A stretch of 64,000 nt of DNA from Pseudomonadota bacterium (GCA_043767805.1 JAYUGC010000066.1:5597-69596), one strand, 5' to 3'; shown: positions 20,441 through 43,473, numbered from the stretch's first letter. Numbers and translations: made by a program. Notes: generated from the sequence alone by a model not told the origin.

Positions 20441-21484
20441 ATGAAGACGGCTTTGGCGCTCCTCGCTTTACTCTGTTTCGCGGTTCCTTCTTGGGCTCAA
20501 CACGGCGGAGTCGCCGCTCAGGCCTTGGATCTCACGGCAGTCGATCAAGAGTTGCAGACGAACGGCCTCCGCGGCTGGGTCCACGGCGCGGCCCCTGAGT
20601 TCAACCAGTACGTTTTCACCTGGCGCGACCCGAACGATTTCTTTCTCCACTTCGAGTTCCCGATGATTACGTCGAACCCCGCGATAAAGGCGGAGCTCGC
20701 GAAGCTCGCCCGGCATGACGAAATCCTCATCAAGGGAAAGTTCGCGGGTCTCCAAGCGCCTGTCCGCCACATCCGGCTTTCTTCCGTCCAAGTGGTGACA
20801 AAGTTTAAGTCCGGCGTGACGGCCCCTCACTTCGTGCGCGAAGCGAAAATGCCGGCCGATCTCGAAGGCAAGACGGAGCTCATCGGCAAAGTCCACGCGG
20901 TGGTGGACGACGGCAAGATTCTCGTCATCGAGTACAAGGACGCGGTCATCCCGGTCTTCGTCTCGAACAACACTTACTCCAAAGATTTGTACCGTAATGA
21001 CAAGATCAAGCTCCACTACGTGATCCGCAAGCACCCAAACTCTCCCTCTCACGTGGAGCTCGACCCGGCGGCGGCTAATCCCATCGAAGTCATGGCCCAC
21101 ATGACTGACCTTCACGGCAAACAGGCCGGCGGTATCGACAAAGCCACCGGCAAGCCCATCGGCACCGAAGGCGTGCTGGTGATGTTCCCGAAAAGCCCGC
21201 AGATCATTTTCAACGTGTTTGCCATCCAGGAAGTGGATGCCGACGGCGTGAAAGTCGAGCACACCCTCATCAACTTCGATGACCCGGCCGTGTTCAAAGC
21301 GCTTCGCGAGAAGCTGCAGAAGATGTGGGACGCGGAAGCTTCCACCGTCGTCAATGCCCGTAATAAGTTCATCAACCCGAAAATCCGACTCCGCGTCTTC
21401 GGAGAAGGCAATATGATCGACCCCGGTCAGGCCAATCCGCAGATTTTGATTAAGAGCGAAGCGGACGTCGTTCGGCTTCCCTAG
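20441..21484 (+). CDS. secreted hypothetical protein (347 aa)
   Basis: GGAGG RBS 8 nt upstream of the ATG. Signal peptide 'MKTALALLALLCFAVPSWA'. No family recognised. It is divergent from the gene at 19802-20272. Confidence 0.5.
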   Translation: MKTALALLALLCFAVPSWAQHGGVAAQALDLTAVDQELQTNGLRGWVHGAAPEFNQYVFTWRDPNDFFLHFEFPMITSNPAIKAELAKLARHDEILIKGKFAGLQAPVRHIRLSSVQVVTKFKSGVTAPHFVREAKMPADLEGKTELIGKVHAVVDDGKILVIEYKDAVIPVFVSNNTYSKDLYRNDKIKLHYVIRKHPNSPSHVELDPAAANPIEVMAHMTDLHGKQAGGIDKATGKPIGTEGVLVMFPKSPQIIFNVFAIQEVDADGVKVEHTLINFDDPAVFKALREKLQKMWDAEASTVVNARNKFINPKIRLRVFGEGNMIDPGQANPQILIKSEADVVRLP

Positions 21485-23514
21485 TTCGCGGCGACTTCAT
21501 CGTACGGGCAAGGCATCGCCCCGCGGAAAGGCTTGGTGAGAGGCCGTCCCGCTCTGAGTAGGATGCCTCCGTCAGGCCTCCGGAGCGCTATGAACTGCGC
21601 CGGATGGGCACCCTCGCGGGCGGGGACCTCAAACTCGACGTGTCCCTCTTTCACCACGGCCTTAGTCTGGCGAATCTTTTCTCCCGGGGCCATCCGGTAG
21701 GAGAGCGATGTCTCTTTCAGCTGCTCTAGGGAAATCCGAGTGCCAAAAACTGAAGCATGCCCGTCCTGAATGGGCACGCGTAATATTTCCGACTCGGTGT
21801 TTTGCCGTGCATCGAAAACCCGGCGGCGGCTCACTCCCGTCACGGGATCCTGTTGATGCTCGAGCACAACCCGGAAAGGCACATCGTCTTTGATGTCTCT
21901 CAAGGTGTGGGCAATAACGCCGTCGATATAGTTTTGAATGATATGCGGTTTCTCTTTTTTAACCGACTTGTCGATAATGGCGTTGATGTGCTCCCAGCGC
22001 TTATTGCCGATATAGAGATCCGGCTGATTGCGGTTCCGGTTCACCGCGGCGGCCTTCATGAAAACTTGCAACCCATCTAGACTGACTCCGGCGGGTAGCG
22101 CCTCGGCGCGCAAGACTTTAAGGAACGCCTCGTAATGGACCAAAGGAATTTCGGAAGGCTTACCCGCGGCAAGCGTGGTCAGAATAGCGCCGAGATCGTA
22201 CTTTCCGCGACGAACCAGCGTTTCCCCCTTGGGCTCGATGACCTCGGGCTGTCCTTCGCTGGCCACTTTGAGCATTTCGGCGATGAGCGCTTTTCCGGCT
22301 AGCGTCTTTTGCACCACCTTCAACAGCTCCTCCGGAGCGCCCGTCAAGCGGAGCATTTCGAAGCCCAAATGATTACCGTAAGCCTCGTCGAAAAGTTCAG
22401 AGACCCGTTCCCGCGACGGAACGGCGCCGCGCAAGCTAACTGGAAGCTTCTGCGCGAAATCATCCACGATCTCGTTCAAGAGATCTCGTTTGGGGATGCT
22501 GCTGTCTCCGTTCGGCCCGTCATCCTTCAAGAGGAGAAGCCGCTGAAAATCCGGCAAGGCGGTTTGCGTGCCGTAGTCGATGAAGCCACCGTTCATCATG
22601 AAGTTCGAAGGACTCGTCGCCCCGTGATAAAAACGGCGCGCGTAGGCGGTGGCGTACGACTCGGCAGTGCGGCGAGTGAGCGTCTCCAAGCCATGCTTAA
22701 TCCGTTCTTTCTCCGAAGCCTGCTTCCCGGGCAATCCCGGCAAGGCTTTGGTGAGATTTGCGAGCGCCCCTTCGACCCGAGCTTGATCTAGAGCCAGGGC
22801 TTGCTCACCCTCCATCGAGTGATTCGATAAGAAATGAGCGGGGCGCAAAGGATCCACCCGGACGATGAGCGAGCGCTTCTCGTCCCAGCCTTCGTGCTCG
22901 GTCACGGTGCCGGTCGATAAAATCGCGACCACGCGGTTCGCTCCATGAGGCATTTCACGATGAAGCACCTCGCCCCATATTGCCTCTTGAACGCCTTCGG
23001 TGGTGCTCGCCCCTCCGTGAGCGTGCCCGCGATCTTCGACTTTGGGACCGACGTTCGGCGTAACGCCGTAACCTTTGTGCTGCACGCCTCCGCGCGAAGC
23101 CGCGCGGCCGCTGCCGAGGTTTCCGTTCAAGGCATTGCCACCGTAGCGATCGGAGAAAAATTCCATGAACTTCGCTTCGAACGTGCCCGGCGGGTCGCTC
23201 TCCCGGGGAACGGCATAAGCGAGGGCATCTAAGATTTCTTGTTCGAACTCCGGAGTCATACCGCCCGGAGGCACGTCGATGCCCATTTCTCTAAGCAGAG
23301 CATAGTTAATCCAAAGCACCCGGGCTTTGGCGAGCTTCTGGCCAGTCACTTTCACGTAGCTCTCTTCCGGCAAAATGGAGCCGAGGAGCTCGGGTGGACC
23401 TTCAGTGAGCTTGCTGATGGAATTTTCGCCAAACGCCGGCGTGTAGCCGACGGACAAAAGGCAAGCGACCAGAAAAAGGCGAATCGAACGGCCCATCAAA
23501 CGCTCCTCGAGCAA
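21481..23514 (-). CDS. SelO/YdiU (UPF0061)-like pseudokinase-fold protein with N-terminal signal peptide
   Basis: 'LFLVACLLSVGYTPAFG' is signal-like. 'NGNLGSGRAASRGGVQHKGYGVTPN' resembles the SelO Gly-rich loop plus Lys ('LGDGRA..LQLKGSGPTPY'). 'GHAHGGASTTEGVQEAIWGEVLHREMPHGANRVVAILSTG' resembles '[34 protein letters not shown]'. 'FYHGATSPSNFMMNGGFIDYG' resembles '[21 protein letters not shown]'. Confidence 0.55.
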   Translation of the reverse strand: MLEERLMGRSIRLFLVACLLSVGYTPAFGENSISKLTEGPPELLGSILPEESYVKVTGQKLAKARVLWINYALLREMGIDVPPGGMTPEFEQEILDALAYAVPRESDPPGTFEAKFMEFFSDRYGGNALNGNLGSGRAASRGGVQHKGYGVTPNVGPKVEDRGHAHGGASTTEGVQEAIWGEVLHREMPHGANRVVAILSTGTVTEHEGWDEKRSLIVRVDPLRPAHFLSNHSMEGEQALALDQARVEGALANLTKALPGLPGKQASEKERIKHGLETLTRRTAESYATAYARRFYHGATSPSNFMMNGGFIDYGTQTALPDFQRLLLLKDDGPNGDSSIPKRDLLNEIVDDFAQKLPVSLRGAVPSRERVSELFDEAYGNHLGFEMLRLTGAPEELLKVVQKTLAGKALIAEMLKVASEGQPEVIEPKGETLVRRGKYDLGAILTTLAAGKPSEIPLVHYEAFLKVLRAEALPAGVSLDGLQVFMKAAAVNRNRNQPDLYIGNKRWEHINAIIDKSVKKEKPHIIQNYIDGVIAHTLRDIKDDVPFRVVLEHQQDPVTGVSRRRVFDARQNTESEILRVPIQDGHASVFGTRISLEQLKETSLSYRMAPGEKIRQTKAVVKEGHVEFEVPAREGAHPAQFIALRRPDGGILLRAGRPLTKPFRGAMPCPYDEVAAN

Positions 23515-23668: not shown

Positions 23669-24745
23669 CTATTCGGCCGATCGGGCGTACTGGTCGGGAA
23701 ACTTCACGGCGTCCCTTTGCCCGAGAGCGCGGGCCGCATGGACGGGCCAATAGGCATCGCGCAGTTGCTGCCGGCCAAGGAGCACGAGATCGGCCTTGCC
23801 ACTCGCAATGATTTCCTCGGCTTGGGCGGGCTCGGTGATGACTCCGACCGCCGCCGTCGCGATGCCGGCGCCTTGGCGTATTCCCTCGGAGAGCGGCACT
23901 TGAAAACCAGGGCCGAACGGAATTTTGGTGATGTCGTTGCTATTGAATCCCGAGCTGCAGTCAATGAGATCGACGCCTTCCGCTTTGAGGCGCTTCGCTA
24001 GCTCGATGGAATCTTCGAGGGCCCAACCGCCAGGCGTCCAATCCGTGCAGGAAAGCCGCACGGTAAAAGGAAACTTGTCGGGCCAAACCGCCCGCATCTC
24101 GCGCGCGGTTTCCAAAACGAAACGAACGCGGTGGTCGAAACTGCCGCCGTAATTATCCGTGCGCTTATTGGAAAGAGGAGAATAGAAACTGTGCGCGAGA
24201 TAACCATGGGCGGCGTGGAGCTCTAGCCACTCATAGCCGGCTTCGAGGGAACGGACGGTCGCCTCGCGAAAGGCTTTTTTCACGTTCGCGATGTCGGCCA
24301 AAGTCATCGCGACGGGTGCGCGATCGATTCTCCCGCCGAAAACCTCCCCGGAAGGAGCGAGGGTCGACCAGCCACCTTCGGCATCTTTGAGCGATCGGCC
24401 GCCTTCCCAAGGCCGCGCCGTACTCGCTTTGCGCCCGGCATGAGCGAGCTGAATGCCGGGGACTGAGCCGTGGGCTTTGAGAAATCGTGTGATGCGAGCG
24501 AGCGGCTCGATTTGAGAGTCTTGCCAAAGGCCCGCGTCTTCGGGAGAGATCCGCCCTTCGGGCGTCACGCCCGTCGCTTCGGCGATGATAAGCGCCGCGC
24601 CGCCCACCGCGCGCGAGCCGAGGTGCACCAAGTGCCAATCGGTCGCGTGTCCGTTTTCGGAACTGTACTGACACATGGGCGAAACGCCTATGCGGTTCTT
24701 TAAGGTGACGGACTTCAATTTGAACGGATCGAATAGATGCGGCAT
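23669..24745 (-). CDS. namA: NADH:flavin oxidoreductase, Old Yellow Enzyme family (NamA/YqjM-like ene-reductase)
   Basis: 'LKNRIGVSPMCQYSSENGHATDWHLVHLGSRAVGGAALIIAEATGV' and 'GIQLAHAGRKAS' are classic OYE TIM-barrel motifs. Confidence 0.8.
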   Translation of the reverse strand: MPHLFDPFKLKSVTLKNRIGVSPMCQYSSENGHATDWHLVHLGSRAVGGAALIIAEATGVTPEGRISPEDAGLWQDSQIEPLARITRFLKAHGSVPGIQLAHAGRKASTARPWEGGRSLKDAEGGWSTLAPSGEVFGGRIDRAPVAMTLADIANVKKAFREATVRSLEAGYEWLELHAAHGYLAHSFYSPLSNKRTDNYGGSFDHRVRFVLETAREMRAVWPDKFPFTVRLSCTDWTPGGWALEDSIELAKRLKAEGVDLIDCSSGFNSNDITKIPFGPGFQVPLSEGIRQGAGIATAAVGVITEPAQAEEIIASGKADLVLLGRQQLRDAYWPVHAARALGQRDAVKFPDQYARSAE

Positions 24746-24763
24746 GGGGAAAACCTACTCCAT

Positions 24764-26050
24764 TTACTTCGGTCCGGCGAGAGACGGGCGGTGCAATTTT
24801 CCGGAGCCGGTGCGCGGAATGGATTCCTCTTTCGAGAACCCATGGGGGATGTGGTCGGGCGGTAACTCTCCCCTGAGCTTGCCGAGAGTTTCCCCCACGC
24901 TCCAATTCGCCTGGATGGGAACGACATACGCGTGAGGCACATGTCCGAGAGTGGGATGCTCTTTCGCAACGACCGCGAGGTCGGAGAAATCCCCCGTGCG
25001 CCAAAGCGCATCGGCAATGACCAGAAGGCTCACCTTGTTTCCCGCGCATTTGAAAATATCATCGAGGCGCCCACTGAGCCGCAGCCGGCCGAGCTCGTCC
25101 ATGACGCCCGTGTCGCCGCTTCGCAACCAGCCGTCCGCCGTGAAGCCTTCCCGCCCTCTTCCGTCGTAGCCCAGCATCACGGTCTTTCCCGAGAACTGGA
25201 CTTCGCTGGTCTCGGGATCGAGGCGCGCGTCGAGTCCTTCGATGGGCAGGCCGACAGAGTCCTCTATGCCACTCACCCTATCCCCGCCATTGATGAAGCC
25301 GCGGCCCGAGAGCTCGGTCATGCCGTACACGATATTGATTCTGGCTGCGGGGTGGCGGTAGCGGATCGCGCGGGCCGTCTCGGGATTCAAACGATCGCCC
25401 GAGGACAAGAGCCACCGCCACGGCCGGCTGGACTCGAGCGCCCAACGTAAGGGAAGCGGCGAAGCGCCTAGCGCGTCCACGCCGAGCCGTTCCACTTCGC
25501 GCAGGAAGGCGCCCGGAAAATAACTCCGCTCGTGCCCCAGGTAAGACGCCCCGGATTTCAGCGCGACGAGAAAATGAGAAAAGCTGCTTACGAAAGTGTA
25601 CGGAATCGGAACGAAGAGGCGGCTTCCCTCTTCCAGACCGAGGCGCGCCGCGGACGCGGTGGCATTCGAGAGAATGCCTTCGGCGGAAAGCAGCGCCCCT
25701 TTTGGCGTTCCCGTGGAGCCGGAGGTAAACCAAACGGCCGCTTCTCCTTCACTTGGGCGGCGAATGACTTTATCCACCGCCGCGCGCAAAGCGTCCGAGG
25801 GCGTAGGCGGGCAGGGGACCGGGATGGAGCCGTTCAGCCAAAGAGCTACGGTATCGATCCAGTAAGCGAGACCACGACCCGAAGAGTTCAGAACGCGCTC
25901 GCCAGGCCGGTGCTCGCGCAGCTCTCCCTTGCGCTTCAACACGGCGGACTTGAAGGCGTCTGCCGTCAGCGTTTCGTTCTCGCTCTCTAATGTGAGTTGC
26001 GGGGCCCGGTCGAGCCAGTGAAGCACGGCCTCCCCGAGAGATTTGGCCAT
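24764..26050 (-). CDS. AMP-dependent synthetase/ligase (short fatty-acyl-AMP/CoA ligase-like adenylating enzyme)
   Basis: A3 motif 'FTSGSTGTPKGA', A5 'IVYGMTE', A7 'GWLRSGDTG', and A10 Lys 'PRTGSGKLHR'. At 428 aa it is shorter than typical FAALs. Confidence 0.75.
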   Translation of the reverse strand: MAKSLGEAVLHWLDRAPQLTLESENETLTADAFKSAVLKRKGELREHRPGERVLNSSGRGLAYWIDTVALWLNGSIPVPCPPTPSDALRAAVDKVIRRPSEGEAAVWFTSGSTGTPKGALLSAEGILSNATASAARLGLEEGSRLFVPIPYTFVSSFSHFLVALKSGASYLGHERSYFPGAFLREVERLGVDALGASPLPLRWALESSRPWRWLLSSGDRLNPETARAIRYRHPAARINIVYGMTELSGRGFINGGDRVSGIEDSVGLPIEGLDARLDPETSEVQFSGKTVMLGYDGRGREGFTADGWLRSGDTGVMDELGRLRLSGRLDDIFKCAGNKVSLLVIADALWRTGDFSDLAVVAKEHPTLGHVPHAYVVPIQANWSVGETLGKLRGELPPDHIPHGFSKEESIPRTGSGKLHRPSLAGPK

Positions 26051-26117
26051 GGCAAAGATTATACACGGACTTAAGTCAGAGACACGTCCGAGCGATCCAA
26101 GTGTTAACTTGGAAAGT

Positions 26118-29100
26118 TCAGCCCGTGGACGGGAGTTTGCCGGAACGCGCGCCCGCGCCGCGCGCCACCTTCATCTCGATGCCCCGGAGCCAGAGAAAAC
26201 AGCGCCCGTTCTCGTCAAAGAGCGCAACCTCGCTCTTGACCGACGTGCCATCGGACTCGAACTGCTCGAGCCGCAGGCTCACCTTCTCGCTGGGCCGATG
26301 GGTGAAGTAGGTCAGCACGTGGGCGACCCGCACGGGCAGGCAATAATTCCCATTCCGCTCGATCTCGATGACGGCCGTCATCTGGAAGGCGGTATCGATC
26401 CACTGGATGAGCCGGCCCCAGAACGAAGCCGAGTAATCATTGGGAAAGAGATCGGCCAGGCCAAAGGTATTCAGCCGTGCGACCGCATCGCCCCGGCCAT
26501 CGATGAGAACATTCGACAAGGTTTGAAACGCGGGCCCGTGAAAGAGGCCTTGCGGCGCATAGATTTGCCGCTCTCCCACGGTCTGAGCGTTAGCAGCCTC
26601 GCGCCAAAGGGGCGGCAAGGCGGCCGTGCCTTCGGCTTCGCACGCGCGAAAGGACCCGTGATCGGAGGAAATCGTGATTTCGAGGACGCCCTGCCCTGCG
26701 CGCGCCTCCATCGAAAGATCGGCGCCCTTGTCGCCCACCACGATGGGACTTTGCGCGACGAAGTCCGCAAGCCCCACCCAGCGTTTGTGATGCAGGTAAA
26801 GCCCAGCCAAGGACATCGCAACCCCCGCCGCCGCCGGAAGGTAGGCGAGCCCTTCGATCCGGTGATCGGAGAGCATGGTATCGAACGCTGGATCAAGCCG
26901 CCGTACGTAGCGATAAACGCCACGCCCGGCGACCGAGGTCCCCAACAACTCCGGGAAGCCCGTCGCGAGCGATTGGCCATAGGCGAGCCAATCGGTGTCA
27001 TCGAAATAGAGCACCGGCCCTTCGCTTTGAAAAAGATCCTGGCGGAAAAGCTCCGCGGCTTTTTCCGGAGTGAGAAGCGAAAGCCCCTTCTGCACGAGCC
27101 CTTGGCGGATGGCGCGGTTCGCGGTCATACCCACGCCGTCCCAAGGCGGCCAGAGGAGAGAGGCCGCCGAGCCCGCGCCCCAAGCGGAGTTGAGCTCTCG
27201 GCAGAATCGATCGAGCACGGCGTTGGCCGCCGCATAGATGGTCTGACCCGGATTGCCGAACCAGGACACCACGGAAGAGAAAAAGAGAATCCGCTTTGGC
27301 GGATTGGCGGCCACCGCGCGCACCACGTGCGCCGCCGACAAAGCCTTCGCCCAAAGCTCCGAGCGGATTTCCTCGGCGGTCTTGGCTCCCAGCGCCCGGC
27401 TGACCTCGACGCCTGAAGCGTGGATCAGCAAGTCGATGCGCCCGTGTTTGTCCAAGATACGCTCGAGATAGGGCGCGACCTCTTCTTGCCTGGTCGCGTC
27501 CACGGTCTCGTAGCTCAACTCCGGATGTTTGGCCCGAAGGGTATCCAGGTGCGGCGTGATCTCGGTTTCCGACGATCGGCCGCAGAGATGCAGATGACCC
27601 ACGTGATCAAGACCGAGGAGCAAGCTTTGGGTGATGCCCTTCGCGCCGCCGATGGCCACTACCACGGCATTTGGAGGAAGACTCTGCAAGGCATCCGGAT
27701 CGGGCATGGCCTCGAGGCGAGCCACATAGCGAACGCCCTCGCGGTAGCGTACTTCCCATTCGAGGGGATCTCTCATCTCTTCGCGAATCCAACGTAACGC
27801 CTCGATCTTCGGATCGGCGTCGTCCAGACGGATGTGTTTGAAACGAATCTCGGGCGATTCCTTGCGTAAGGCTTTGAAGAAAGCGGCGATCGCTTCCGTA
27901 ATGACGCTGCCTTGGCCCATGGTCACGAACCCGATGGTCAGCTCGGCCAGCTTGGGCTCGATCCGCACAACTTCCTGCACGGCCTCGGCCGCTCTGGGAA
28001 GCCCGGTCTCAAGCCATTGATTGAGGGACCCATCCGCGGTGAGCGACAAATCGCTCACGAAGCCGGTCGCGACAAAGATCACTTGCCGCGTGCGGCAGGA
28101 AGCGAGCTGCTGACGAAACTCAGCCGCGAGCGCTTTTGGATCGAAATCGGTCAGGAAATCCGCTGGGGTCAGCGGGATCATGAGCGGGGTCGCTTCGACG
28201 GAAACTTCCCAGATGGGATCAAGCGCCTGAGGGAACCAAGCCACCCGTTTACGCTCGAAATGACCGACCTTTTCGGGCATCGCCTCGGCGCCCTTCGCGG
28301 CCGGCGCTTCGGTCTCCATGTAACCCACGAGATCTTCGACCTTCGTGAAGCGAGCGTAGTTGACCTCGCCCTCGGGCTTGAAGTTCAGGCGATCCATGAC
28401 CGAGAATAGGATTTCGGTCTTCTTGATGGAATCGATCCCCAAGTCTTCCTGGAAACGATCTTCGAGAGAGATTTCCTCGATCTGGTAGCCGGTAATCTTT
28501 CCGATGACGTCGTTGACGATGGAAAGTACGCGGCCCGCGGGCTTCTTTGCTTTGGCGGCGGCCGCTTTCTTGCGGGGGGTCTTACGGAGCAAGTCGCCCA
28601 CCCAAAGCGTTTCCTTCGCTCCGCATTCGCGCGCCAAAGCCGAGAGCAGCGAGGTGGGGCCAATCTCCATGAACTTGGTGGTGCCGCCCTCGGACATCAC
28701 GCCCATCTGCCGGATGAAATCGACGGGCTCGACCAGCTGATTTTCGAGAATGAAGAAGATGTCATCGGCTTTGAAGTTCGTGGCGTCGACTTGGCGGTGG
28801 AGCACGGAGGAAACGAAAGGAATCGCGGGAGGCGAGAAATTCCAGCTGCGGGACCGCAGGAACTTACGCATCACCGGCTTCAAGGAAAGCAGAAACGGGG
28901 AGTGATACGGCTGCGGCGTGAGAAGGCGCTTCGCCTTGACCCCTTTGTCCTTGATGAGCCGCTCGATCTCGTCCACTTCGCCCGGCGCCACGGCGATGAC
29001 CGTCTGGGTGGGGCTGTTGAAATTGGAAAGATGCACGTTGCGGCCGCGAAGGAGGACCGCCGTGCGCTCGCGGTCCGCGCCCACCGCCACTAGATAACCG

Positions 29101-29600
29101 CGCTCGTTGGCGGGCGGCGAAATCTGTTCTCGGTAGGTCACGAGAGCGAGCATTTCTTCGAATGGCACGACGCCCGCGGCGACCAGCATCGCGTACTCGC
29201 CGAAAGAATGGCTGGTCAGCACCTTCGGAAAGATCCCGCGGCACAAGAGCGAGTCGAAGAGCGCCACTTCGAGTACGAAGAGACTCAAATTCTGGATCGG
29301 TAAGAGGGAAGCCGGGTCCGCGCCTTCTTCGGCCAAAATATGAGAGGAGATCTTGGGAAGGCCGGCACTTACCACGAGCTTATCGGCCTTCTCGAAGACG
29401 CCGCGAATCTCGGGACGGTGGTACTGATCGCGGAGCATGCCCGGGTGCGCGGCGCCTTGGCCGGCAAAGAGAAATCCCCAGCTCGCCTGAGCCGTGGCGG
29501 GCTTCACTTGCAGCTGGTAGCCGCCGCCAAAGATAGACTCCGAGCGCACTTCGGCTTTCTGGTACCAGTTGAGGCCATGCAGGAAGGAAGTGCGGTTCAT
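26118..29600 (-). CDS. type I PKS / PfaA-like protein: acyltransferase - ACP - ketoreductase - PS-type dehydratase (no KS)
   Basis: True start is 'MNRTSF' at 29600, overlapping the KS gene stop (ATGA). AT domain: 'GQGAAHPGM', 'LTSHSFGEYAML' (GHSxG). ACP: 'LGIDSIKKTEIL'. KR: 'VVVAIGGAKGITQ' ... 'YAAANAVLD'. DH: 'HRIEGLAYLPAAAGVAM' (HxxxGxxxxP). The ORF-track N-terminal 28 aa are an extension. Confidence 0.85.
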   Translation of the reverse strand: MNRTSFLHGLNWYQKAEVRSESIFGGGYQLQVKPATAQASWGFLFAGQGAAHPGMLRDQYHRPEIRGVFEKADKLVVSAGLPKISSHILAEEGADPASLLPIQNLSLFVLEVALFDSLLCRGIFPKVLTSHSFGEYAMLVAAGVVPFEEMLALVTYREQISPPANERGYLVAVGADRERTAVLLRGRNVHLSNFNSPTQTVIAVAPGEVDEIERLIKDKGVKAKRLLTPQPYHSPFLLSLKPVMRKFLRSRSWNFSPPAIPFVSSVLHRQVDATNFKADDIFFILENQLVEPVDFIRQMGVMSEGGTTKFMEIGPTSLLSALARECGAKETLWVGDLLRKTPRKKAAAAKAKKPAGRVLSIVNDVIGKITGYQIEEISLEDRFQEDLGIDSIKKTEILFSVMDRLNFKPEGEVNYARFTKVEDLVGYMETEAPAAKGAEAMPEKVGHFERKRVAWFPQALDPIWEVSVEATPLMIPLTPADFLTDFDPKALAAEFRQQLASCRTRQVIFVATGFVSDLSLTADGSLNQWLETGLPRAAEAVQEVVRIEPKLAELTIGFVTMGQGSVITEAIAAFFKALRKESPEIRFKHIRLDDADPKIEALRWIREEMRDPLEWEVRYREGVRYVARLEAMPDPDALQSLPPNAVVVAIGGAKGITQSLLLGLDHVGHLHLCGRSSETEITPHLDTLRAKHPELSYETVDATRQEEVAPYLERILDKHGRIDLLIHASGVEVSRALGAKTAEEIRSELWAKALSAAHVVRAVAANPPKRILFFSSVVSWFGNPGQTIYAAANAVLDRFCRELNSAWGAGSAASLLWPPWDGVGMTANRAIRQGLVQKGLSLLTPEKAAELFRQDLFQSEGPVLYFDDTDWLAYGQSLATGFPELLGTSVAGRGVYRYVRRLDPAFDTMLSDHRIEGLAYLPAAAGVAMSLAGLYLHHKRWVGLADFVAQSPIVVGDKGADLSMEARAGQGVLEITISSDHGSFRACEAEGTAALPPLWREAANAQTVGERQIYAPQGLFHGPAFQTLSNVLIDGRGDAVARLNTFGLADLFPNDYSASFWGRLIQWIDTAFQMTAVIEIERNGNYCLPVRVAHVLTYFTHRPSEKVSLRLEQFESDGTSVKSEVALFDENGRCFLWLRGIEMKVARGAGARSGKLPSTG

Positions 29601-31648
29601 GGCTGAAAGTCGATTCCTTCCAGAGTGAACAGCGGTCCCTTGCCCACGTCCGGCACTTCTCCGGGCCGAGCGAGGAGCAGGCAATGGACTCCCGCCTTAC
29701 GAACGTCCGGCAAAGCTTCGTCGATGATGTCCTCGACTCCGATCGCCACTACGTAATCGCTCGTCTTCTGCCAGAGCTCGAGACGCGCGGCGCTCAGCGC
29801 GCAGGCAAACGAGTTCAAGTCGGCATCGACGTGGTAATTGGGGCCGTGAAAATCAAATTGATTGGCGACTCTACCGGCGATGACGTTGTCGAGCGTGCCC
29901 GGCCCGGCGTCCTCGCCGATTTTGGGATACCGTTCCCGGTGCGAGATGAGTCCTTTGAGGCCCGGCTCATCGCCTTTTCTGCCGCGCGCGAACTCCCAAT
30001 GACGAACCCGGCAATTGAGCCAGGCGTCCAGACCGAGCGAACAGGAGGAGATGACCGCCACGCGGTCGCGGGGAATCTGATCCCAATCGAGCCCCGAGCG
30101 ATCGAGCGCTTCGGACACCGCCATGAGGGTTAGTAGCTGGCTCACGTCGATCTGATTCAAGTTATTGGGCGGGATCTTAAAACCGTAGCTCGGAAAAAAA
30201 TCGAGGAAGTTCTCTCTCGGCACAAAGCTCTGCGCGAGCACCGAGACGGGCCCGACCTCGAGCTTCGGCCGCTCGGCAAGCGCGGTCGTCTGAGAAAACG
30301 TTTCCAAAAAGAGATGGTAGTTCGTCCCGCCAAAACCCGCGGAGCTTACGCCCGCTCTCAACGTACCTTCCTTCGCCATGAGAACCGGCTTCGGATTCAC
30401 GAAGACCGCGGTGGGGGCTCGTTCCTCGATGTAACTTTCGAAGTACGGGGATGGGGGTGCCGTGCGATGGGTAAGCGCAAGAATGCATTTGAGCATTCCC
30501 GCGGCGCCGGCCGCTCCCTTGGTGTGCCCGATTAAGGACTTCACGGAACCGATGGGAATCGGCGTGGGCGCGCCCTTGAAAAAAGCATCGAGGGTGTCGA
30601 TCTCGGTTGCGTCGCCGAGACGCGTGCCGGTCGCGTGGCATTCCAGAAAGTCGAGACGCGCGGGCTTGTTGTCGCCGTACGCTCGCTCCAAAGCGAGGCG
30701 CTGTCCATCGGAAGTTGGGGAAAAGAGACTGGCGCCGCGTCCATTCGAGGAACCGCCACAGCCCCGCAGGATCGCCTTTACCGGAAGCCCCGCCTTCATA
30801 GCGTCGTCTAAACGCACGAGAGCGAAGACCGCGGCGCCTTCTCCTTGATTCACGCCGTCCGTTTTATCGTCGAGCGGAAGGCAGCGGCCGTGGGACATGA
30901 GCCCCAGGCGGCTGAACAAAACGAAGTACTCGGGCGCAAGCTGTGTCTCGACACCGCCCGTGAGAGCGATGTCGCATTCCCGCGCGCGCAGTTTCTTCAT
31001 GGCGACGTCTGCCGCGGCAAGAGACGAGGCGCAAGCGGCCCCCACCAGACACCGTTCGCCGGGCATTTTGAAATGCCTTTGCAGGCGGTCGACCGCCGCC
31101 GTGTTGACGACGAGAGGAAGCGGCGTGGAGCGCTCCGCTTCTAGACGCCTAAGGGTGCTATCCAGGATGGCTCTCGCGGGAGCGCGCTCGGCGGCGGGTA
31201 ATGTCTCGATGTGCTCGAGAAGGCGCGGTCGTTCTAGGATGAGCTTGTGCTCGGAGACCTGATCGTCGGGGCCAAGGGCCCCTAGAAACCAGCCGGCTTT
31301 CCATCCCGCGCGCTTTGCCTCGGGGACCGTGGCTAGCGCCTGATGAGTCGCTTCGAGCAAAAAGACCTGAAAGCGATTCGTGTCTTTGAAATCCAGCCCA
31401 TGCGCTAAAGCGAGCCGCCGCACTTCGGTTTCGGCGACATAGGCGCCGAAAGTGGAATAAGTTTTGTCGGGATCTTCGCCGGTCTCGTCCAAATAAAGAT
31501 CTTCGGGCCAGCGATCGGCCGGAGCGCGGCGGATGGAGGGCTCGCCCGCGAGCACTCGCTTCCAAAAAGTGTCGGGGTTCGGTGAGTCCGGAAAGACGCA
31601 CCCAATTCCCACGACAGCAATATCGTCCTTATAAAGTGTATCGGGCAT
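29597..31648 (-). CDS. type I PKS ketosynthase (KS + KS-AT linker), stand-alone polypeptide
   Basis: 'DIAVVGIGCVFPDSPN', active-site Cys 'VGAACASSLAA', His motifs 'ECHATGTRLGD' and 'SLIGHTKGAAG'. About 250 aa of linker follow the KS. The gene is translationally coupled to the downstream AT-ACP-KR-DH gene. Confidence 0.85.
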   Translation of the reverse strand: MPDTLYKDDIAVVGIGCVFPDSPNPDTFWKRVLAGEPSIRRAPADRWPEDLYLDETGEDPDKTYSTFGAYVAETEVRRLALAHGLDFKDTNRFQVFLLEATHQALATVPEAKRAGWKAGWFLGALGPDDQVSEHKLILERPRLLEHIETLPAAERAPARAILDSTLRRLEAERSTPLPLVVNTAAVDRLQRHFKMPGERCLVGAACASSLAAADVAMKKLRARECDIALTGGVETQLAPEYFVLFSRLGLMSHGRCLPLDDKTDGVNQGEGAAVFALVRLDDAMKAGLPVKAILRGCGGSSNGRGASLFSPTSDGQRLALERAYGDNKPARLDFLECHATGTRLGDATEIDTLDAFFKGAPTPIPIGSVKSLIGHTKGAAGAAGMLKCILALTHRTAPPSPYFESYIEERAPTAVFVNPKPVLMAKEGTLRAGVSSAGFGGTNYHLFLETFSQTTALAERPKLEVGPVSVLAQSFVPRENFLDFFPSYGFKIPPNNLNQIDVSQLLTLMAVSEALDRSGLDWDQIPRDRVAVISSCSLGLDAWLNCRVRHWEFARGRKGDEPGLKGLISHRERYPKIGEDAGPGTLDNVIAGRVANQFDFHGPNYHVDADLNSFACALSAARLELWQKTSDYVVAIGVEDIIDEALPDVRKAGVHCLLLARPGEVPDVGKGPLFTLEGIDFQP

Positions 31649-31700
31649 TTACGAGCTGGGAGAGCGTAGAGGAAGGCTCTTAAAAGGTACGGCGTACCTA

Positions 31701-32522
31701 TTAAGATGATTTCTCTATTTTAACGCCTAGCCGCTCGAAGGCATAGCCCGGCGATCCCATGAAGTGATAGCCGCCATCGACGTGGAGCACTTCGCCTGTG
31801 GTAGACGCGGAAAGGTCGGAGAGGAGAAAACCCATGGCGCGCGCCACGTCATCGCCGGTGATATTACGGCCTTGCGGGGACATGGCCTTGAATTTCTCGA
31901 GCACGTCGCCGAAGACACCGAAGCTTTGGGTTTTAACCGGGCCCGCGCTCACCGCGTTGACCCGAATGCGCTTGGGCGCCAAATCGTAAGCGAGATAGCG
32001 GAGCGCCATGTCGAGAGCCGCCTTACACACCCCCATGAGGTTGTAGCCACTCACTACGCGCTCCCCGCCGAAGTAGGTGAGCGTGCCGATGGCGCCACCC
32101 GAGGGCATGAGAGCCGCCGCCTCCCGCGCACAGGCGATGAGGCTATAGCAGCTGACGTCCATGGCGACGCGAAAGCCTTCCCGGCTCGCCTCCAAAGTCG
32201 TGTGCTTCAAATCTTCGACGGGCGCGAAGGCGATGGAGTGCACCAGAAAATCGATGGCCCCCATTTCCCCGCCCGCCTCATTGAAGAAATGTTTGAGCGA
32301 TGCGTCGTCAGCGACGTCGCAAGGGAGAACGAACAGCGGACTCAAAGCGTCCGTCGCCGTTTTTACTTTCTGCAGGTTCCAATCGCGGCCGGGCTTATCC
32401 GTCTGGTACGAGAGCCCTATCTCCGCTCCTTCCTTTTTCAGGAAAGTTGCGATGGCCGTCGCAAGAGACGCCTCATTCGCAATGCCCATGACGATGCCGC
32501 GTTTACCGGTGAAAAGTCCCAT
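31701..32522 (-). CDS. fabI: enoyl-[ACP] reductase, FabI-like SDR
   Basis: Start 'MGLFTGKRGIVMGIANEASLATAIA' is a FabI-type NAD-binding N-terminus. 'Y..MGVCKAAL' is the Tyr/Lys catalytic pair. 273 aa. The ORF-track N-terminal extension (to 33044) is rejected. Confidence 0.75.
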   Translation of the reverse strand: MGLFTGKRGIVMGIANEASLATAIATFLKKEGAEIGLSYQTDKPGRDWNLQKVKTATDALSPLFVLPCDVADDASLKHFFNEAGGEMGAIDFLVHSIAFAPVEDLKHTTLEASREGFRVAMDVSCYSLIACAREAAALMPSGGAIGTLTYFGGERVVSGYNLMGVCKAALDMALRYLAYDLAPKRIRVNAVSAGPVKTQSFGVFGDVLEKFKAMSPQGRNITGDDVARAMGFLLSDLSASTTGEVLHVDGGYHFMGSPGYAFERLGVKIEKSS

Positions 32523-32675
32523 GGGGAAATTGTACCAGTCGGCCCCTTTTGGGGTGCAAAGTGCCCAAACGCGGCACCCCTCCGAGGGGAGAAGCACCTC
32601 CCCTCGAAGGAGGAAACCGGAACACCTCTTGCACAAGAGAACCTCAGGGCTGCATTGGCCCTGGAGGCGGTAGGC

Positions 32676-32978
32676 ATGGACCCACACTGGCTTAAATACA
32701 AGAACGACGACGAGATCGGACCCTTGCTCGCCAGCTACTCGCACACCGACGAGCAGCTCGACTTTCTCAAAAACGATCTCCGCGACAACGGCAATATCGA
32801 GGGCATCCTCGCCGTCTCTCGCCGCCAAGTGGCCATAAAGTACAAAATCTCGAAGCTGGTGGGGGCCGAGGAAGACCGCCACTTCCAAAGGCGCATGAGC
32901 CTTTTGTGGATGCTCGGGGTTTTCGCGCTCGTTCTGGTCGGCGCGGCGAATCTTGCGCTGCGTCTCGGAATCTTTTAA
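32676..32978 (+). CDS. small tail-anchored membrane protein (100 aa), not called separately in ORF track
   Basis: ATG at 32676 has GGAGG 8 nt upstream. Strong GC3 coding bias. C-terminal TM helix 'LLWMLGVFALVLVGAANLALRL'. The sequence is 'MDPHWLKYKNDDEIGPLLASYSHTDEQLDFLKNDL...'. It sits 57 nt upstream of the SPFH gene on the same strand. Confidence 0.45.
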   Translation: MDPHWLKYKNDDEIGPLLASYSHTDEQLDFLKNDLRDNGNIEGILAVSRRQVAIKYKISKLVGAEEDRHFQRRMSLLWMLGVFALVLVGAANLALRLGIF

Positions 32979-33034
32979 CCAGTTTTCCCTTAAACAATAG
33001 GCAGGTAGCGACCGATAGAGCATTCGGTAGCAAA

Positions 33035-34000
33035 ATGCCCGCACCCAAACAACAAAACGGACTTTTCCAAGGCATCTACGAGTTCCAAGATCCGTCGGGC
33101 ACTTTGCTCGCGGCTCGTATCCCGGCCTCCGGCTCCGTGGATCTCTACGACGGCACGACTCTCGTAGTGCGGCCCAATCAGTGCGCGATGTTCGTGCACA
33201 AAGGCCAAGTCGCCGACATTCTCACCCAAGGCACGCATACGCTTCGCACCGAGAACGTTCCGGTGCTCACCCGACTCGCGAACTGGCGCAAAGGGTTTCA
33301 GAGCCCGGTGCGCGCGGAAATCTGGTTCTTCTCTGGAATGGTTTTCACGGCTCGCCGCTGGGGAACCGCTCAACCGGTACTCACCAATCTCGACGCCGCC
33401 CCGATGCCTCTGCGCGGGTACGGCAACTACAATATTTTCATCCGCGATCCCCGCAAGCTTTTCAAAAAGCTCGTCGGCACGCGCAGCTTTCTGGACATCA
33501 CCGAGATCGAGGAGTTCGTCCAGAGCGAGATCCTCGCGGCTCTTCCCACTGCTCTCGAAGTCTTGAAATCGGTTTCCGATCTGGGCGCCTCGCACCGTCA
33601 GGTGGCAGCCAGGTTAGAAAACGATCTCGTGGCCCGGCTCGCCGAGTACGGCTTGTCGGTGACCAATCTCCAAGTGCTTGCTCTCATCCCGCCTCAGGAA
33701 GTGCTCGAGGCGCTGGACGCGAAGCTCGCCATGAAAGTGATCGGCAATCCGAAAGAGTACCTGCTTTACAAGGCGGCCAACTCCCTCGATGCCCTGCACG
33801 AGTCCGGCGGCAATGACTCGCTCCAGATGATGCTCGGGATGATGCTCGGCAAAGGACTCATCGGCGCCGATTATCACGAGAAAGAAAAATCTCTCGCGTC
33901 GGACAAGAGCGCGTCCCAGCAGCGCTGCGCTTCGTGCAACAACATCACCGATGCCGTGAACCGTTTTTGCCCTCATTGTGGCCGGGAGCTTGCTAAATGA
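33035..34000 (+). CDS. SPFH/band-7 domain protein with C-terminal zinc ribbon
   Basis: The SPFH-like core is followed by 'CASCNNITDAVNRFCPHCGREL' (CxxC...CxxC). Start is 'MPAPKQQNGLFQG'. Confidence 0.55.
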   Translation: MPAPKQQNGLFQGIYEFQDPSGTLLAARIPASGSVDLYDGTTLVVRPNQCAMFVHKGQVADILTQGTHTLRTENVPVLTRLANWRKGFQSPVRAEIWFFSGMVFTARRWGTAQPVLTNLDAAPMPLRGYGNYNIFIRDPRKLFKKLVGTRSFLDITEIEEFVQSEILAALPTALEVLKSVSDLGASHRQVAARLENDLVARLAEYGLSVTNLQVLALIPPQEVLEALDAKLAMKVIGNPKEYLLYKAANSLDALHESGGNDSLQMMLGMMLGKGLIGADYHEKEKSLASDKSASQQRCASCNNITDAVNRFCPHCGRELAK

Positions 34001-40634: not shown

Positions 40635-41279
40635 GTGCCGCTACTTAGCTGCCTCGCTTTGCTTTTTATTTCCACGCTGGCTTTTGCCGAAGCGCCCCAA
40701 CGCCTCGCGAAAATCCGTCCACCGCTCTGGGACGTGTCGCCCCGTTTGATGCTCGGCTTCAATTTTTCCTACGGCGCCGCCGATCCCGGCTCTCCGGGCT
40801 CGACTCGCAATGCGCCGTCGTTTCTGGCGTCGGTCGATCTTCCACTCGGAAACGGCTGGTACTTTTCTCCGGGCATGGGCCTACTCGCTCGCGGGGTGCA
40901 GACCACGGTGTACACCTTGGGCACCTTGGATTTAAAGGGTAGCGTGCAGCTCGATTACGTCGAGCTTCCGCTTCTGCTGAAAAAATCCTTCGCAAGTCAC
41001 GTGCGCGGCATGCGCTATACGTTTTTCGGCGGCCCCGCCATGGCGCTCGCCATCCAGCGTGAGGTCGAGCTGCTAGGCGCCGTGAACCTCGACATCTCCG
41101 ATCGCTTTTTCGCGAGCGATACGCTTTTCTACATGGGCGCGGGGATTGAGTATAAAGGACCGAAGGGACCTGGGATCGTGGCGGAGCTCAGGTACGCGCT
41201 GGGGCTCGGCGACATCGATCGGACGGCGAATCAGTACCGCACGCGCGGGATTTTGTTTTTGCTGGGACTCAGCTTTTAG
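40635..41279 (+). CDS. outer-membrane beta-barrel protein (OmpA-N/porin-like small barrel)
   Basis: GTG start with GGAGGGG RBS. Signal peptide 'PLLSCLALLFISTLAFA'. Alternating hydrophobic beta-strand pattern. C-terminal 'GILFLLGLSF' ends in Phe, as in barrel-assembly signals. Confidence 0.6.
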   Translation: MPLLSCLALLFISTLAFAEAPQRLAKIRPPLWDVSPRLMLGFNFSYGAADPGSPGSTRNAPSFLASVDLPLGNGWYFSPGMGLLARGVQTTVYTLGTLDLKGSVQLDYVELPLLLKKSFASHVRGMRYTFFGGPAMALAIQREVELLGAVNLDISDRFFASDTLFYMGAGIEYKGPKGPGIVAELRYALGLGDIDRTANQYRTRGILFLLGLSF

Positions 41280-42947: not shown

Positions 42948-42968
42948 CAGAATCCTAGGGAGCGAGGC

Positions 42969-43256: not shown

Positions 43257-43473
43257 TTGATTGCTGTCTCCGTTGGTTAAGGGTTCGAAAGAACCCAAAG
43301 ATACTAACAAACCGGATCCCGTTCGTAACGAAGCATTCGACGACGCATCGCTCCCGCGATCACCGCAACACCGATACAAATTGCCACACCGGATCGGCCC
43401 GCTTCCTCACGCCCGAGATTGGTATCGCCATTGCATTGAGATCTCCCCAAGCACCCCAAAAGGAGACTTCCCC

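What the first reader, a model, noticed from the sequence alone, without database searches (positions are those of the whole stretch)
23669..32522. PfaA-like secondary-lipid synthase split into a stand-alone KS and an AT-ACP-KR-DH protein, flanked by FabI-like and OYE ene-reductases and a short acyl-AMP ligase
**What the sequence shows.** A 683-aa KS (Cys-His-His intact) ends in an ATGA overlap with a 1160-aa protein. That protein carries domains in the order AT (GHSxG 'SHSFGE'), one ACP ('GIDSI'), KR (Rossmann + YxxxN) and a PS-type DH ('HxxxGxxxxP').

**What is established.** KS-AT-ACP(n)-KR-DH is the PfaA/HglE order of iterative PUFA and heterocyst-glycolipid synthases, not that of modular PKS.

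**What differs here.** The KS is physically separate, there is a single ACP, and there are no PfaB/C/D (CLF, FabA-DH, PfaD-ER) genes. Enoyl reduction would instead have to come from a FabI-type SDR upstream, and perhaps the OYE-type ene-reductase downstream. A 428-aa adenylating enzyme probably loads a fatty-acyl starter.

**What is inferred.** This compact set looks like a non-canonical iterative system for a hydroxylated or unsaturated long-chain lipid. A PfaA-like module that is both split and missing the PfaB/C/D partners is not an arrangement I recognise.
Basis: partly seen in the sequence, partly recalled or inferred. Interest (0 to 1): 0.6.

Follow-up and report, generated by a model that had tools for sequence, protein, structure and literature searches.

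The report
Two-protein fatty-acid-like synthase with half-CLF
The genes are real and belong to a widespread, apparently undescribed two-protein lipid/polyketide synthase family of predatory Bdellovibrionota and ultra-small Patescibacteria. Its condensing enzyme carries half of a "chain-length factor", and in this lineage it has picked up its own FabI reductase.

Summary
On the minus strand lie FabI (31701-32522), a 683-aa KS (29597-31648), a 1160-aa AT-ACP-KR-DH protein (26118-29600, ATGA overlap), an ANL ligase and an OYE. All catalytic residues are intact.

The interpretation needs three corrections.
1. The split is not a local oddity. KS + AT-ACP-KR-DH is a conserved, usually overlapping gene pair in about 35 loci from Bdellovibrionota and Patescibacteria.
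3. The partners differ in how well they are supported.
 - FabI is synthase-linked wherever context is visible among relatives at 63-91% identity. FabIs at 61% or below are not.
 - Another clade carries an MDR-type reductase instead.
 - The ligase and the ordinary YqjM-class OYE occur only here and in one close relative.
 - The family's usual partners, an Acyl_transf_3-clan membrane protein and a PPTase, are absent from the window.

Best reading: an iterative type I FAS-like synthase with a trans enoyl reductase. The product is unknown. I rate it a new variant of a known kind, interest about 0.6.

The parts
31701..32522 (-). FabI-type enoyl-ACP reductase (273 aa), first gene of the same-strand block and a candidate trans-acting ER
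   Evidence: Pfam adh_short_C2 1.5e-71. Best NCBIfam hits are all FabI, 258 bits, below the equivalog cut-offs. The Y-x6-K motif YNLMGVCK was read, and the start codon. Relatives at 63-91% identity are synthase-linked.
30284..31648 (-). KS domain (aa 1-455) with Cys206/His338/His375
   Evidence: Pfam ketoacyl-synt plus Ketoacyl-synt_C. C206, H338 and H375 are invariant in 38 sequences. AF2 pLDDT 93.
29597..30283 (-). Half-CLF (aa 456-683 plus stop): the N-terminal half of a second KS-like fold, with Leu in place of the catalytic Cys
28611..29483 (-). AT domain (aa ~40-330) of the 1160-aa protein, malonyl-type (Q48, S132, R157, H233)
   Evidence: Pfam Acyl_transf_1. TIGR00128 fabD 108 bits. Invariant residues. 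The model superposes on FabD 3H0P with TMt 0.83.
28305..28532 (-). Single ACP (aa ~357-432), phosphopantetheine Ser391 in LGIDSI
   Evidence: Pfam PP-binding 3.3e-4. S391 is invariant in 28/28. Flanked by low-pLDDT linkers at 340-355 and 432-440.
27021..28256 (-). Structural (pseudo-KR) subdomain plus catalytic KR (aa ~449-860), with K752/S776/Y789/N793
   Evidence: Pfam KR 5.6e-22. Invariant catalytic residues. The model matches the PKS KR 4J1Q over 439 columns, TMt 0.77.
26160..26948 (-). PKS-type double-hotdog DH (aa ~885-1147), with His913 and Asp1069xxxGln1073
   Evidence: Pfam PKS_DH_N and PS-DH. H913 and Q1073 are 28/28, and the acid is D/E in 28/28.
24764..26050 (-). ANL-superfamily adenylating ligase (428 aa). 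Link to the synthase is uncertain.
   Evidence: Pfam AMP-binding plus AMP-binding_C. Motifs SGSTGTPKG, YGMTE, SGDTG, GRLDDIFK and PRTGSGK were read. The best PDB relative scores only 71 bits. It sits next to the synthase only in the window and L002/L008.
23669..24745 (-). YqjM/XenA-class Old Yellow Enzyme (358 aa), 18 bp after the ligase. Link to the synthase is weak.
   Evidence: Pfam Oxidored_FMN 1.6e-65. 419 bits to 7O0T and 368 to the TOYE-type 3HF3. It sits next to the synthase only in the window and L002/L008.

Best explanation
The block encodes an iterative, type I FAS-like acyl-chain synthase built from two tightly coupled proteins plus a trans-acting enoyl reductase. It is a member of a conserved family of Bdellovibrionota and Patescibacteria.

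Proposed cycle:
1. The AT (Q48/S132/R157/H233) loads malonyl onto the single in-cis ACP (Ser391).
2. The KS (Cys206/His338/His375) condenses. Its usual dimer face is occupied in cis by a cysteine-less half-KS. This half sits where the chain-length factor sits in the PfaC KS-CLF didomain, and it probably helps shape the acyl pocket.
3. KR and the double-hotdog DH give trans-2-enoyl-ACP.
4. The upstream FabI reduces that intermediate in trans, and the cycle repeats to give a largely saturated chain.

What is shown: the gene arrangement, the domain order, conservation of every catalytic residue, family-wide coupling of the two genes, the half-CLF fold (model only), and recurrent FabI linkage in this sub-clade.

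What is inferred: malonyl specificity, iteration, FabI acting on this ACP, chain length and product.

What is unknown: priming and release in this lineage. There is no TE, no PPTase and no Acyl_transf_3-type membrane protein anywhere in the 64 kb. The adjacent ANL ligase may load a carboxylic-acid starter. The OYE may be unrelated.
For: - Domains and motifs. Invariant catalytic residues across 28 and 38 family members.
- The KS gene lies directly upstream of the AT-ACP-KR-DH gene in almost every family locus where both are visible, out of about 35 genome loci. The pair overlaps by 4-19 bp where gene calls were available. Fused single-chain versions exist.
- FabI linkage, with the FabI gene immediately upstream and on the same strand:
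  - L002: 89% FabI identity, next to the KS.
  - P0243 contig: 82%.
  - L081: 76%, order FabI-AT3-KS, with the KS 57% identical to the window KS.
  - L084: 63%, order FabI-AT3.

- FabIs at 61% identity or below show no family genes nearby. This covers two genome contexts and 32 metagenome loci, and several of these sit beside DUF423 and flagellar genes.
- Non-orthologous ER candidate in another clade: an MDR/PIG3-like reductase that hits the ER domain of Pks2, next to AT3-KS-AAKD in 7 loci.
- Short same-strand gaps in the window, read from the coordinates: 52 bp, a 4-bp overlap, 67 bp and 18 bp.
Against: - Only 64 kb of this genome is visible, so the FabI could be the cell's only (housekeeping) fabI that happens to lie beside the synthase.
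- Most family loci, including all Patescibacteria ones, show no ER within 10 kb. The core may therefore normally make an unsaturated or hydroxylated product.
- No PPTase, thioesterase or acyltransferase for release was found in the window.
- The half-CLF packing rests on a predicted structure.
- No experimental datum exists for any member. Seven full-text literature searches found no description.
Confidence: 0.5

Rival explanations
1. The core pair is an ER-independent synthase. KS, KR and DH act in every round and give a conjugated polyene or a short enoyl/3-hydroxy chain. This is chemically like enediyne PKSE, whose order KS-AT-ACP-KR-DH-PPTase is colinear with the Patescibacteria operons KS | AT-ACP-KR-DH | PPTase. 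The Acyl_transf_3-clan membrane protein then passes the product to an envelope acceptor. Under this reading the window's FabI is just the housekeeping gene.
For: - Most loci have no ER nearby. An AT3-clan membrane protein is present in ~26 of 41 loci and a PPTase directly downstream in ~14.
- The PPTase gene overlaps the end of the AT-ACP-KR-DH gene in Portnoybacteria and Moraniibacteria.
Against: - FabI or an MDR reductase recurs next to the module in two separate Bdellovibrionota clades.
- No enediyne PKS structure appears among the 60 best PDB sequence matches of the KS, and generic modular KSs score higher.
- No PKSE-type thioesterase or cassette genes were seen.
- The window has neither the AT3 protein nor the PPTase.
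Confidence: 0.2
2. The system is a remodelling or elongation device for scavenged fatty acids. The ANL ligase activates a fatty acid taken from prey or host and loads it on the ACP. The synthase then adds one or a few C2 units, with FabI completing each round. The result would be longer or 3-hydroxy/2-enoyl chains for the predator's own envelope.
For: - An ANL ligase with all core motifs lies 67 bp downstream.
- A long-chain fatty-acid-CoA-ligase-like gene lies near the module in a Moraniibacteria locus, and an AMP-binding gene lies near it in a 'Woesearchaeota'-labelled locus.
- The family is concentrated in predatory and episymbiotic lineages.
- Patescibacteria are reported to lack fatty-acid synthesis and to recycle host lipids (PMC7242380; PMC12455944).
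Against: - The window-type ligase is found beside the synthase only in the window and one close relative.
- Its substrate cannot be read from sequence, since the best PDB match is 71 bits.
- The AT is malonyl-type and the KS is a normal decarboxylating KS. These fit de novo synthesis equally well.
Confidence: 0.15
3. This is the first reader's version: a PUFA/heterocyst-glycolipid-type secondary-lipid synthase that makes an unsaturated or hydroxylated long-chain lipid, with both FabI and OYE acting as dedicated ene-reductases.
For: - The KS-AT-ACP-KR-DH order.
- TIGR02813 (PfaA) is the best NCBIfam hit of the KS.
- The nearest single-chain relatives pass the PfaA cut-off.
- The KS-CLF-like architecture.
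Against: - No FabA-type DH/isomerase, no tandem ACPs and no PfaD-type ER.
- Both proteins score far below the PfaA cut-off.
- The OYE is a generic YqjM/XenA-class enzyme and is not co-conserved beyond one close relative.
Confidence: 0.07

Closest known systems
PfaC / ORF10 KS-CLF didomain of bacterial PUFA synthases (PDB 6RIW, Moritella marina)
   Same: - An active KS is followed in the same chain by a cysteine-less KS-like domain that packs on the KS dimer face.
- In a rough NJ tree, KS-CLF and tandem-KS proteins are the nearest outgroups.
   Different: - Only the N-terminal half of the second domain is present (~228 aa; hhalign matches KS residues 89-298 only).
- No FabA-like DH domains follow.
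- Sequence identity to 6RIW is ~22-24%.
PfaA (TIGR02813) and PfaA-like single-chain KS-AT-ACP-KR-DH proteins
   Same: - Colinear AT, ACP, KR and DH at 25-29% identity.
- PS-type DH placed after the KR.
- Malonyl-type AT.
   Different: - The KS is on a separate polypeptide, with the half-CLF where a KS-AT linker would be.
- One ACP instead of tandem ACPs.
- Scores of 274.6 and 181.2 bits against a cut-off of 1010. True PfaA-like relatives score ~1245.
- No PfaB/C/D partners.
Enediyne polyketide synthase PKSE (KS-AT-ACP-KR-DH-PPTase). The domain order is from my own knowledge.
   Same: - Same domain order.
- In Patescibacteria loci a PPTase gene follows directly, so three genes reproduce the PKSE order.
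- Iterative logic without a cis ER.
   Different: - No particular sequence closeness.
- No PKSE cassette or hotdog thioesterase seen.
- The window lacks the PPTase and has a linked FabI.
Type II FAS enoyl-ACP reductase FabI acting on a type I carrier (trans-ER logic, as with LovC-type trans ERs, which are of a different fold)
   Same: A discrete reductase gene placed next to an ER-less type I synthase. The FabI has the Y-x6-K catalytic motif.
   Different: - Known trans ERs of PKSs are MDR- or FabK/PfaD-type, from my own knowledge. A FabI-type SDR dedicated to a type I synthase would be unusual.
- Another clade of this same family does use an MDR-type candidate.
Reduced Pfa-like clusters of Shulse and Allen 2011 (PMC3098273): Type H (split pfaA) and Type J (pfaD + KS-MAT-ACP3-KR only)
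   Same: Precedent that Pfa-like synthases occur split and without the full PfaB/C/D set.
   Different: None of the described types has KS-half-CLF | AT-ACP-KR-DH with an AT3-clan membrane protein, a PPTase or FabI. Bdellovibrio and Patescibacteria are not mentioned in that survey.

Membership tests
PfaA, polyketide-type PUFA synthase subunit (NCBIfam TIGR02813) | Score at or above the curated cut-off (1010.1 bits) | tested here: not met
   KS 274.6 bits and AT-ACP-KR-DH 181.2 bits. The fused family member P0046 scores 359.6. The outgroup proteins P0102 and P0085 score ~1245.
PfaA, polyketide-type PUFA synthase subunit | Domain order KS-AT-ACP(n)-KR-DH | tested here: met
   The order is met across the two proteins, but with a half-CLF inserted after the KS.
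PfaA, polyketide-type PUFA synthase subunit | Tandem ACP domains | tested here: not met
   One PP-binding match and one DSI serine.
Pfa/Hgl secondary-lipid synthase system | Companion genes: PfaB-type AT, PfaC with FabA-like DH domains, PfaD/FabK-type ER | tested here: not met
   Pfam scans of 47 of the window's larger ORFs (8 + 10 + 10 + 10 proteins) found none. Not every ORF in the window was scanned. None appears in the relatives' flanks either.
KS-CLF didomain (PfaC/HglC type) | Active KS followed in cis by a KS-like domain that lacks the catalytic Cys and packs as a pseudo-dimer | tested here: inconclusive
   The Cys-less second domain and PfaC-like packing are supported. However, only the N-terminal half of the fold is present, and the packing comes from a predicted model.
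Enediyne PKSE | Single chain ending in a PPTase domain, with an associated hotdog thioesterase and enediyne cassette | tested here: not met
   Two chains, and no PPTase by tblastn anywhere in the window. No cassette genes in the flanks.
FabI enoyl-ACP reductase (type II FAS) | Y-x6-K catalytic motif and FabI-family profile match | tested here: met
   YNLMGVCK. The top twelve NCBIfam hits are all FabI models.
FabI enoyl-ACP reductase (type II FAS) | Score above an NCBIfam FabI equivalog cut-off | tested here: not met
   Best is 258.5 bits against a cut-off of 337.
FabI enoyl-ACP reductase (type II FAS) | Is the sole or housekeeping fabI of the genome | not testable with these tools
   Only 64 kb of the genome is available.
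Unnamed family: KS-half-CLF | AT-ACP-KR-DH gene pair of Bdellovibrionota and Patescibacteria | ~680-aa KS with a C-terminal half-KS, immediately followed (usually overlapping) by a ~1150-aa AT-ACP-KR-DH gene | tested here: met
Unnamed family: KS-half-CLF | AT-ACP-KR-DH gene pair | Usual partners: an Acyl_transf_3/HGSNAT-clan membrane protein upstream and an Sfp-type PPTase downstream | tested here: not met
   No tblastn match in the whole window. They are present in ~26 and ~14 of 41 loci respectively.
Old Yellow Enzyme, YqjM/XenA ('thermophilic-like') class | Full-length Oxidored_FMN domain with close similarity to solved class members | tested here: met
   Pfam 1.6e-65. 419 bits to 7O0T and 354-368 bits to XenA/TOYE-type entries.

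The most novel reading that the evidence does not exclude
The KS-half-CLF | AT-ACP-KR-DH pair may be a minimal type I fatty-acid synthase with a monomeric KS. It would be the previously overlooked de novo acyl-chain machinery of many Patescibacteria (CPR), shared by horizontal transfer with predatory Bdellovibrionota. Different lineages would complete it with non-orthologous trans enoyl reductases (FabI here, MDR elsewhere). If true, part of the CPR is not strictly dependent on host fatty acids, and a thiolase-fold condensing enzyme can work with only half a partner subunit.
Probability: 0.15. Interest if true: 0.85.

Novelty: new variant of a known kind. Interest (0 to 1): 0.6.

Why it matters
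- **Architecture.** A KS whose dimer face is filled by half a thiolase fold, coupled non-covalently to an AT-ACP-KR-DH chain, is a stripped-down layout. I could not find it described. It bears on how chain-length factors work and on how small an iterative synthase can be.
- **Distribution.** The family is concentrated in two groups that live on other bacteria. One of them, Patescibacteria, is widely stated to lack fatty-acid synthesis (PMC7242380, PMC12455944). Loci in genomes of about 0.8 Mb keep this 5.5-kb module with its own PPTase and a membrane acyltransferase-like protein. That makes 'where do CPR acyl chains or envelope lipids come from' directly testable.
- **Evolution.** Different clades appear to have recruited different reductase folds.
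- **For this window.** The practical result is more modest. The gene pair is a normal member of that family, with a lineage-specific FabI and two neighbours of doubtful relevance.

Tried and rejected
- **Metagenome scan with the 1160-aa protein alone.** 46 pattern matches, none confirmed.
- **Second metagenome scan with the FabI sub-clade alignment.** It returned only FabIs at 65% identity or below, with no family genes nearby. This was useful as a negative control but added no new synthase-linked cases.
- **afdb50 fold library.** Not available.
- **Seven full-text literature searches.** Terms covered Patescibacteria/CPR/Parcubacteria/Bdellovibrio combined with PKS, FAS, hglE-KS, ACP, and 'KS-AT-ACP-KR-DH'. 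None found a description of the family. The lipidomics paper on CPR does not mention it.
- **Enediyne-PKSE idea.** Considered because of colinearity with the CPR operons, then rejected as a membership claim. There is no sequence closeness, no cassette and two chains.
- **Truncated, inactive ligase.** Rejected. All ANL core motifs are present and the length is comparable with MenE-type enzymes.
- **Hidden ER between ACP and KR.** Rejected. That region (~449-640) folds as the KR structural subdomain and is too short for an ER.
- **Link to type IV pilin-like genes.** Seen beside some loci in both phyla but not pursued.
- **PDB sequence ranking of the KS.** The top hit, 7ZMA, is inflated by two KS domains in one chain and is not a sign of special closeness.


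Full report
**1. What is in the sequence**

Five same-strand (minus) ORFs fill 23669-32522:
- a FabI-like SDR at 31701-32522 (273 aa; the ATG at 32522 was read);
- a 683-aa KS at 29597-31648;
- a 1160-aa protein at 26118-29600, whose ATG overlaps the KS stop (ATGA);
- a 428-aa ANL ligase at 24764-26050;
- a 358-aa OYE at 23669-24745.

The gaps between them are 52 bp, a 4-bp overlap, 67 bp and 18 bp. A simple consensus scan found no sigma-70-like promoter inside the block, and terminator-like hairpins were at background frequency. This is uninformative.

Pfam gives ketoacyl-synt/Ketoacyl-synt_C for the KS. For the large protein it gives Acyl_transf_1, PP-binding, KR, PKS_DH_N and PS-DH, in that order.

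In alignments of 28 and 38 family members, the following residues are invariant:
- KS Cys206/His338/His375;
- AT Ser132/Arg157/His233, with Gln48 nearly invariant (27 of 28, the remaining row being a gap);
- ACP Ser391;
- KR Lys752/Ser776/Tyr789/Asn793;
- DH His913/Gln1073. The DH acid is Asp or Glu in all 28.

**2. The split is the family norm**

A search with the 1160-aa protein found dozens of proteins of 1100-1170 aa with the same domains at 25-38% identity, plus one at 73%. Source names, where given, were Patescibacteria (Portnoybacteria, Moraniibacteriota, Paceibacterota), Bdellovibrionota and a few others.

A scan of one genome per species returned about 35 family loci. The closest is a Pseudobdellovibrionaceae MAG, so the window most likely comes from that family.

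In almost every locus where both genes are visible, a ~680-aa KS gene lies directly upstream of the AT-ACP-KR-DH gene. The two genes overlap by a few bases where gene calls were available. A few fused single-chain versions of 1800-1960 aa exist, with the order KS, extra KS-like stretch, AT, ACP, KR, DH.

Neither window protein reaches the NCBIfam PfaA cut-off: 274.6 and 181.2 bits against 1010. The nearest single-chain KS-AT-ACP-KR-DH relatives outside the family score ~1245. The pair is thus related to PfaA-type synthases but is not a PfaA that happened to split here.

**3. The KS carries half a chain-length factor**

Residues ~456-683 of the KS protein match the N-terminal half of KS domains. 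They are colinear with the second KS of a tandem KS-KS protein.

A profile of this tail aligns to the family's own KS residues 89-298 with 97.6% probability (E 3.6e-12). It does not align to the C-terminal half. The column equivalent to the catalytic Cys is Leu/Phe/Met and is never Cys in 38 sequences. Flanking residues are strongly conserved.

The AlphaFold model built from 38 homologues is confident throughout (pLDDT 93, pTM 0.94).
- Foldseek puts the PfaC KS-CLF didomain of a PUFA synthase (6RIW) far ahead of everything else: TMq 0.78 over 777 columns, against 0.51-0.57 for KS-only hits.

A rough NJ tree also places KS-CLF and tandem-KS proteins, not PfaA-like KSs, as nearest outgroups (no support values).

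The condensing subunit is a KS with a truncated, cis-packed CLF-like half-domain. I infer that the KS works as an intramolecular pseudo-dimer and that the half-domain contributes to the acyl pocket.

A library-wide search with the tail alone found about 50 clusters (at 50% identity) of ~640-720-aa proteins matched at their C-terminus among the best 150 hits. It also found fused forms, and then ordinary KS N-halves.

**4. Which neighbours belong to the system**

Clustering of flanking ORFs over window-type and related loci gave the following.
- **Most frequent partner.** A ~365-aa membrane protein of the Acyl_transf_3/HGSNAT clan, in about 26 of 41 loci and usually directly upstream of the KS.
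- **Second partner.** An Sfp-type PPTase, in about 14 loci and usually directly downstream.

Neither is detectable anywhere in the 64-kb window.

**FabI.** Within the first set of loci it was adjacent only in the window and its 73% relative, where synteny extends to unrelated genes and so says little. I then searched FabI itself.

| FabI relative | Identity to window FabI | Context |
|---|---|---|
| L002 | 89% | FabI-KS |
| P0243 contig | 82% | FabI, then a cut gene of more than 335 aa 49 bp downstream (no DNA available) |
| L081 | 76% | FabI-AT3-KS, with the KS 57% identical to the window KS |
| L084 | 63% | FabI-AT3, where the AT3 is a family member |

FabIs at 59-61% identity sit beside DUF423 and flagellar genes. 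Thirty-two metagenome loci at 65% or below carry no family genes. The link therefore survives a change in gene order and a drop to 57% KS identity.

Independently, a different Bdellovibrionales clade has an MDR/PIG3-like reductase beside AT3-KS-AAKD in seven loci. That reductase matches the ER domain of Pks2. Two unrelated reductase folds recruited next to the same ER-less module is the main argument for a trans-ER mechanism.

The caveat is that I cannot see whether this genome has another fabI.

**Ligase and OYE.** They accompany the synthase only in the window and L002/L008.
- The OYE is a standard YqjM/XenA-class enzyme (419 bits to 7O0T).
- The ligase is divergent (71 bits to the best PDB entry) but has every ANL core motif.
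- Unrelated AMP-binding genes occur near the module in two other loci, and one of them is long-chain-FACS-like.

I treat the ligase as a possible primer-loading enzyme and the OYE as probably incidental.

**5. Mechanism and alternatives**

The best-supported reading is an iterative type I FAS-like cycle.
1. A malonyl-type AT loads the single ACP.
2. The KS-half-CLF condenses.
3. KR and DH process the beta-carbon.
4. FabI reduces in trans.

The AAKD model supports the parts list:
- the AT superposes on FabD (TMt 0.83);
- the pseudo-KR plus KR superposes on a PKS KR (TMt 0.77);
- there are flexible linkers around the ACP;
- the N-terminal 38 residues are disordered and might dock on the KS protein.

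Release and activation are unexplained in this lineage.

The main rival is that the core normally works without an ER. Patescibacteria operons read KS | AT-ACP-KR-DH | PPTase with an AT3 membrane protein, which is colinear with enediyne PKSE. Under this rival the core makes an unsaturated chain handed to the envelope. A second rival is elongation of scavenged fatty acids. A canonical PUFA-type product is unlikely without FabA-like DH/isomerase domains.

**6. Comparison, novelty, verdict**

Closest known systems are:
- the PfaC KS-CLF didomain (architecture of the condensing subunit);
- PfaA-type KS-AT-ACP-KR-DH proteins (processing subunit, 25-29% identity);
- enediyne PKSE (domain order only);
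- the reduced Pfa-like cluster types of Shulse and Allen, which include a split pfaA and a two-gene type but not this arrangement.

I found no paper describing the family. Work on CPR lipids states that these bacteria lack fatty-acid synthesis and does not mention it.

I rate it a new variant of a known kind.

For the window itself, the finding is a correctly read gene set whose 'odd' features are family traits, plus a lineage-specific FabI. The wider interest lies in the half-CLF architecture and in the family's presence in Patescibacteria.

Noticed in passing
window 41276-43379 (minus strand): Bufferin-like RiPP cluster. It has an MbnB/TglH/ChrH (DUF692) enzyme at 42036-42947, Pfam 3.2e-110, and a DUF2063 protein at 41276-42094. 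Upstream, an ORF (42969-43379) ends in a signal-peptide-like segment followed by a Lys- and Cys-rich peptide (…CLGANSCKTTGDCGAKDKSHDCAGKNGCKGKGW…), a plausible precursor.
   Followed up: partly
window 35884-39148 (plus strand): A 685-aa protein with two ATP-grasp (D-Ala-D-Ala-ligase-like) modules is followed, with overlap, by a Peptidase_S58 (DmpA/BapA-type aminopeptidase) gene. Single-module ATP-grasp genes lie downstream of the synthase in L009 (directly adjacent) and L017.
   Followed up: no
L003 721-5864 and 17437-19105; L021 14458-16316 and the equivalent positions in L024, L027, L035, L036, L037: Type IV pilus and pseudopilin genes (N_methyl proteins, T2SSE/F, prepilin peptidase) flank the synthase module. 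This is seen in a Portnoybacteria genome and in six Bdellovibrionales-type loci. It may be chance, since both groups are rich in such genes.
   Followed up: no
KS tree over L008-L043, L119, L120: In a rough NJ tree the Patescibacteria KSs form one clade. That clade is sister to the Bdellovibrionota group containing the window, and both sit inside a wider Bdellovibrionota radiation. This would fit horizontal transfer between two lineages that live on other bacteria (no support values).
   Followed up: partly
L013, L041; proteins P0005, P0127: Family members sit on contigs binned or named as archaea (Methanosarcinales, Woesearchaeota, Nanoarchaeota). This could be mis-binning of Patescibacteria contigs or real presence in DPANN archaea.
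   Followed up: no
window 21481-23514 (minus), 11859-14585 (minus), 5589-7325 (minus): Large ORFs of 677, 908 and 578 aa have no Pfam match. The 677-aa gene lies right after the OYE in the window. It gives no tblastn match in the 73%-identical relative's locus, so it looks like an insertion.
   Followed up: partly
window 32523-33050 versus L002 2704-7090: Between the Band_7/SPFH gene and FabI, the relative carries four extra genes (100 aa, a beta-propeller protein of 553 aa, 485 aa and 239 aa) that the window lacks. Both flanks of the FabI-to-OYE block have therefore been rearranged while the block stayed intact.
   Followed up: partly
protein P0154 (Cystobacter sp., partial): A tandem KS-KS protein in which the first KS-like domain has DAGYSS instead of the Cys motif and the second is intact. 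This is the reverse order of KS-CLF. It is the best full-length match to the window's KS plus tail.
   Followed up: no
window 55196-59962 (minus strand): An ordinary Suf iron-sulfur cluster assembly operon (SufS-like aminotransferase and two SufB/D genes).
   Followed up: no
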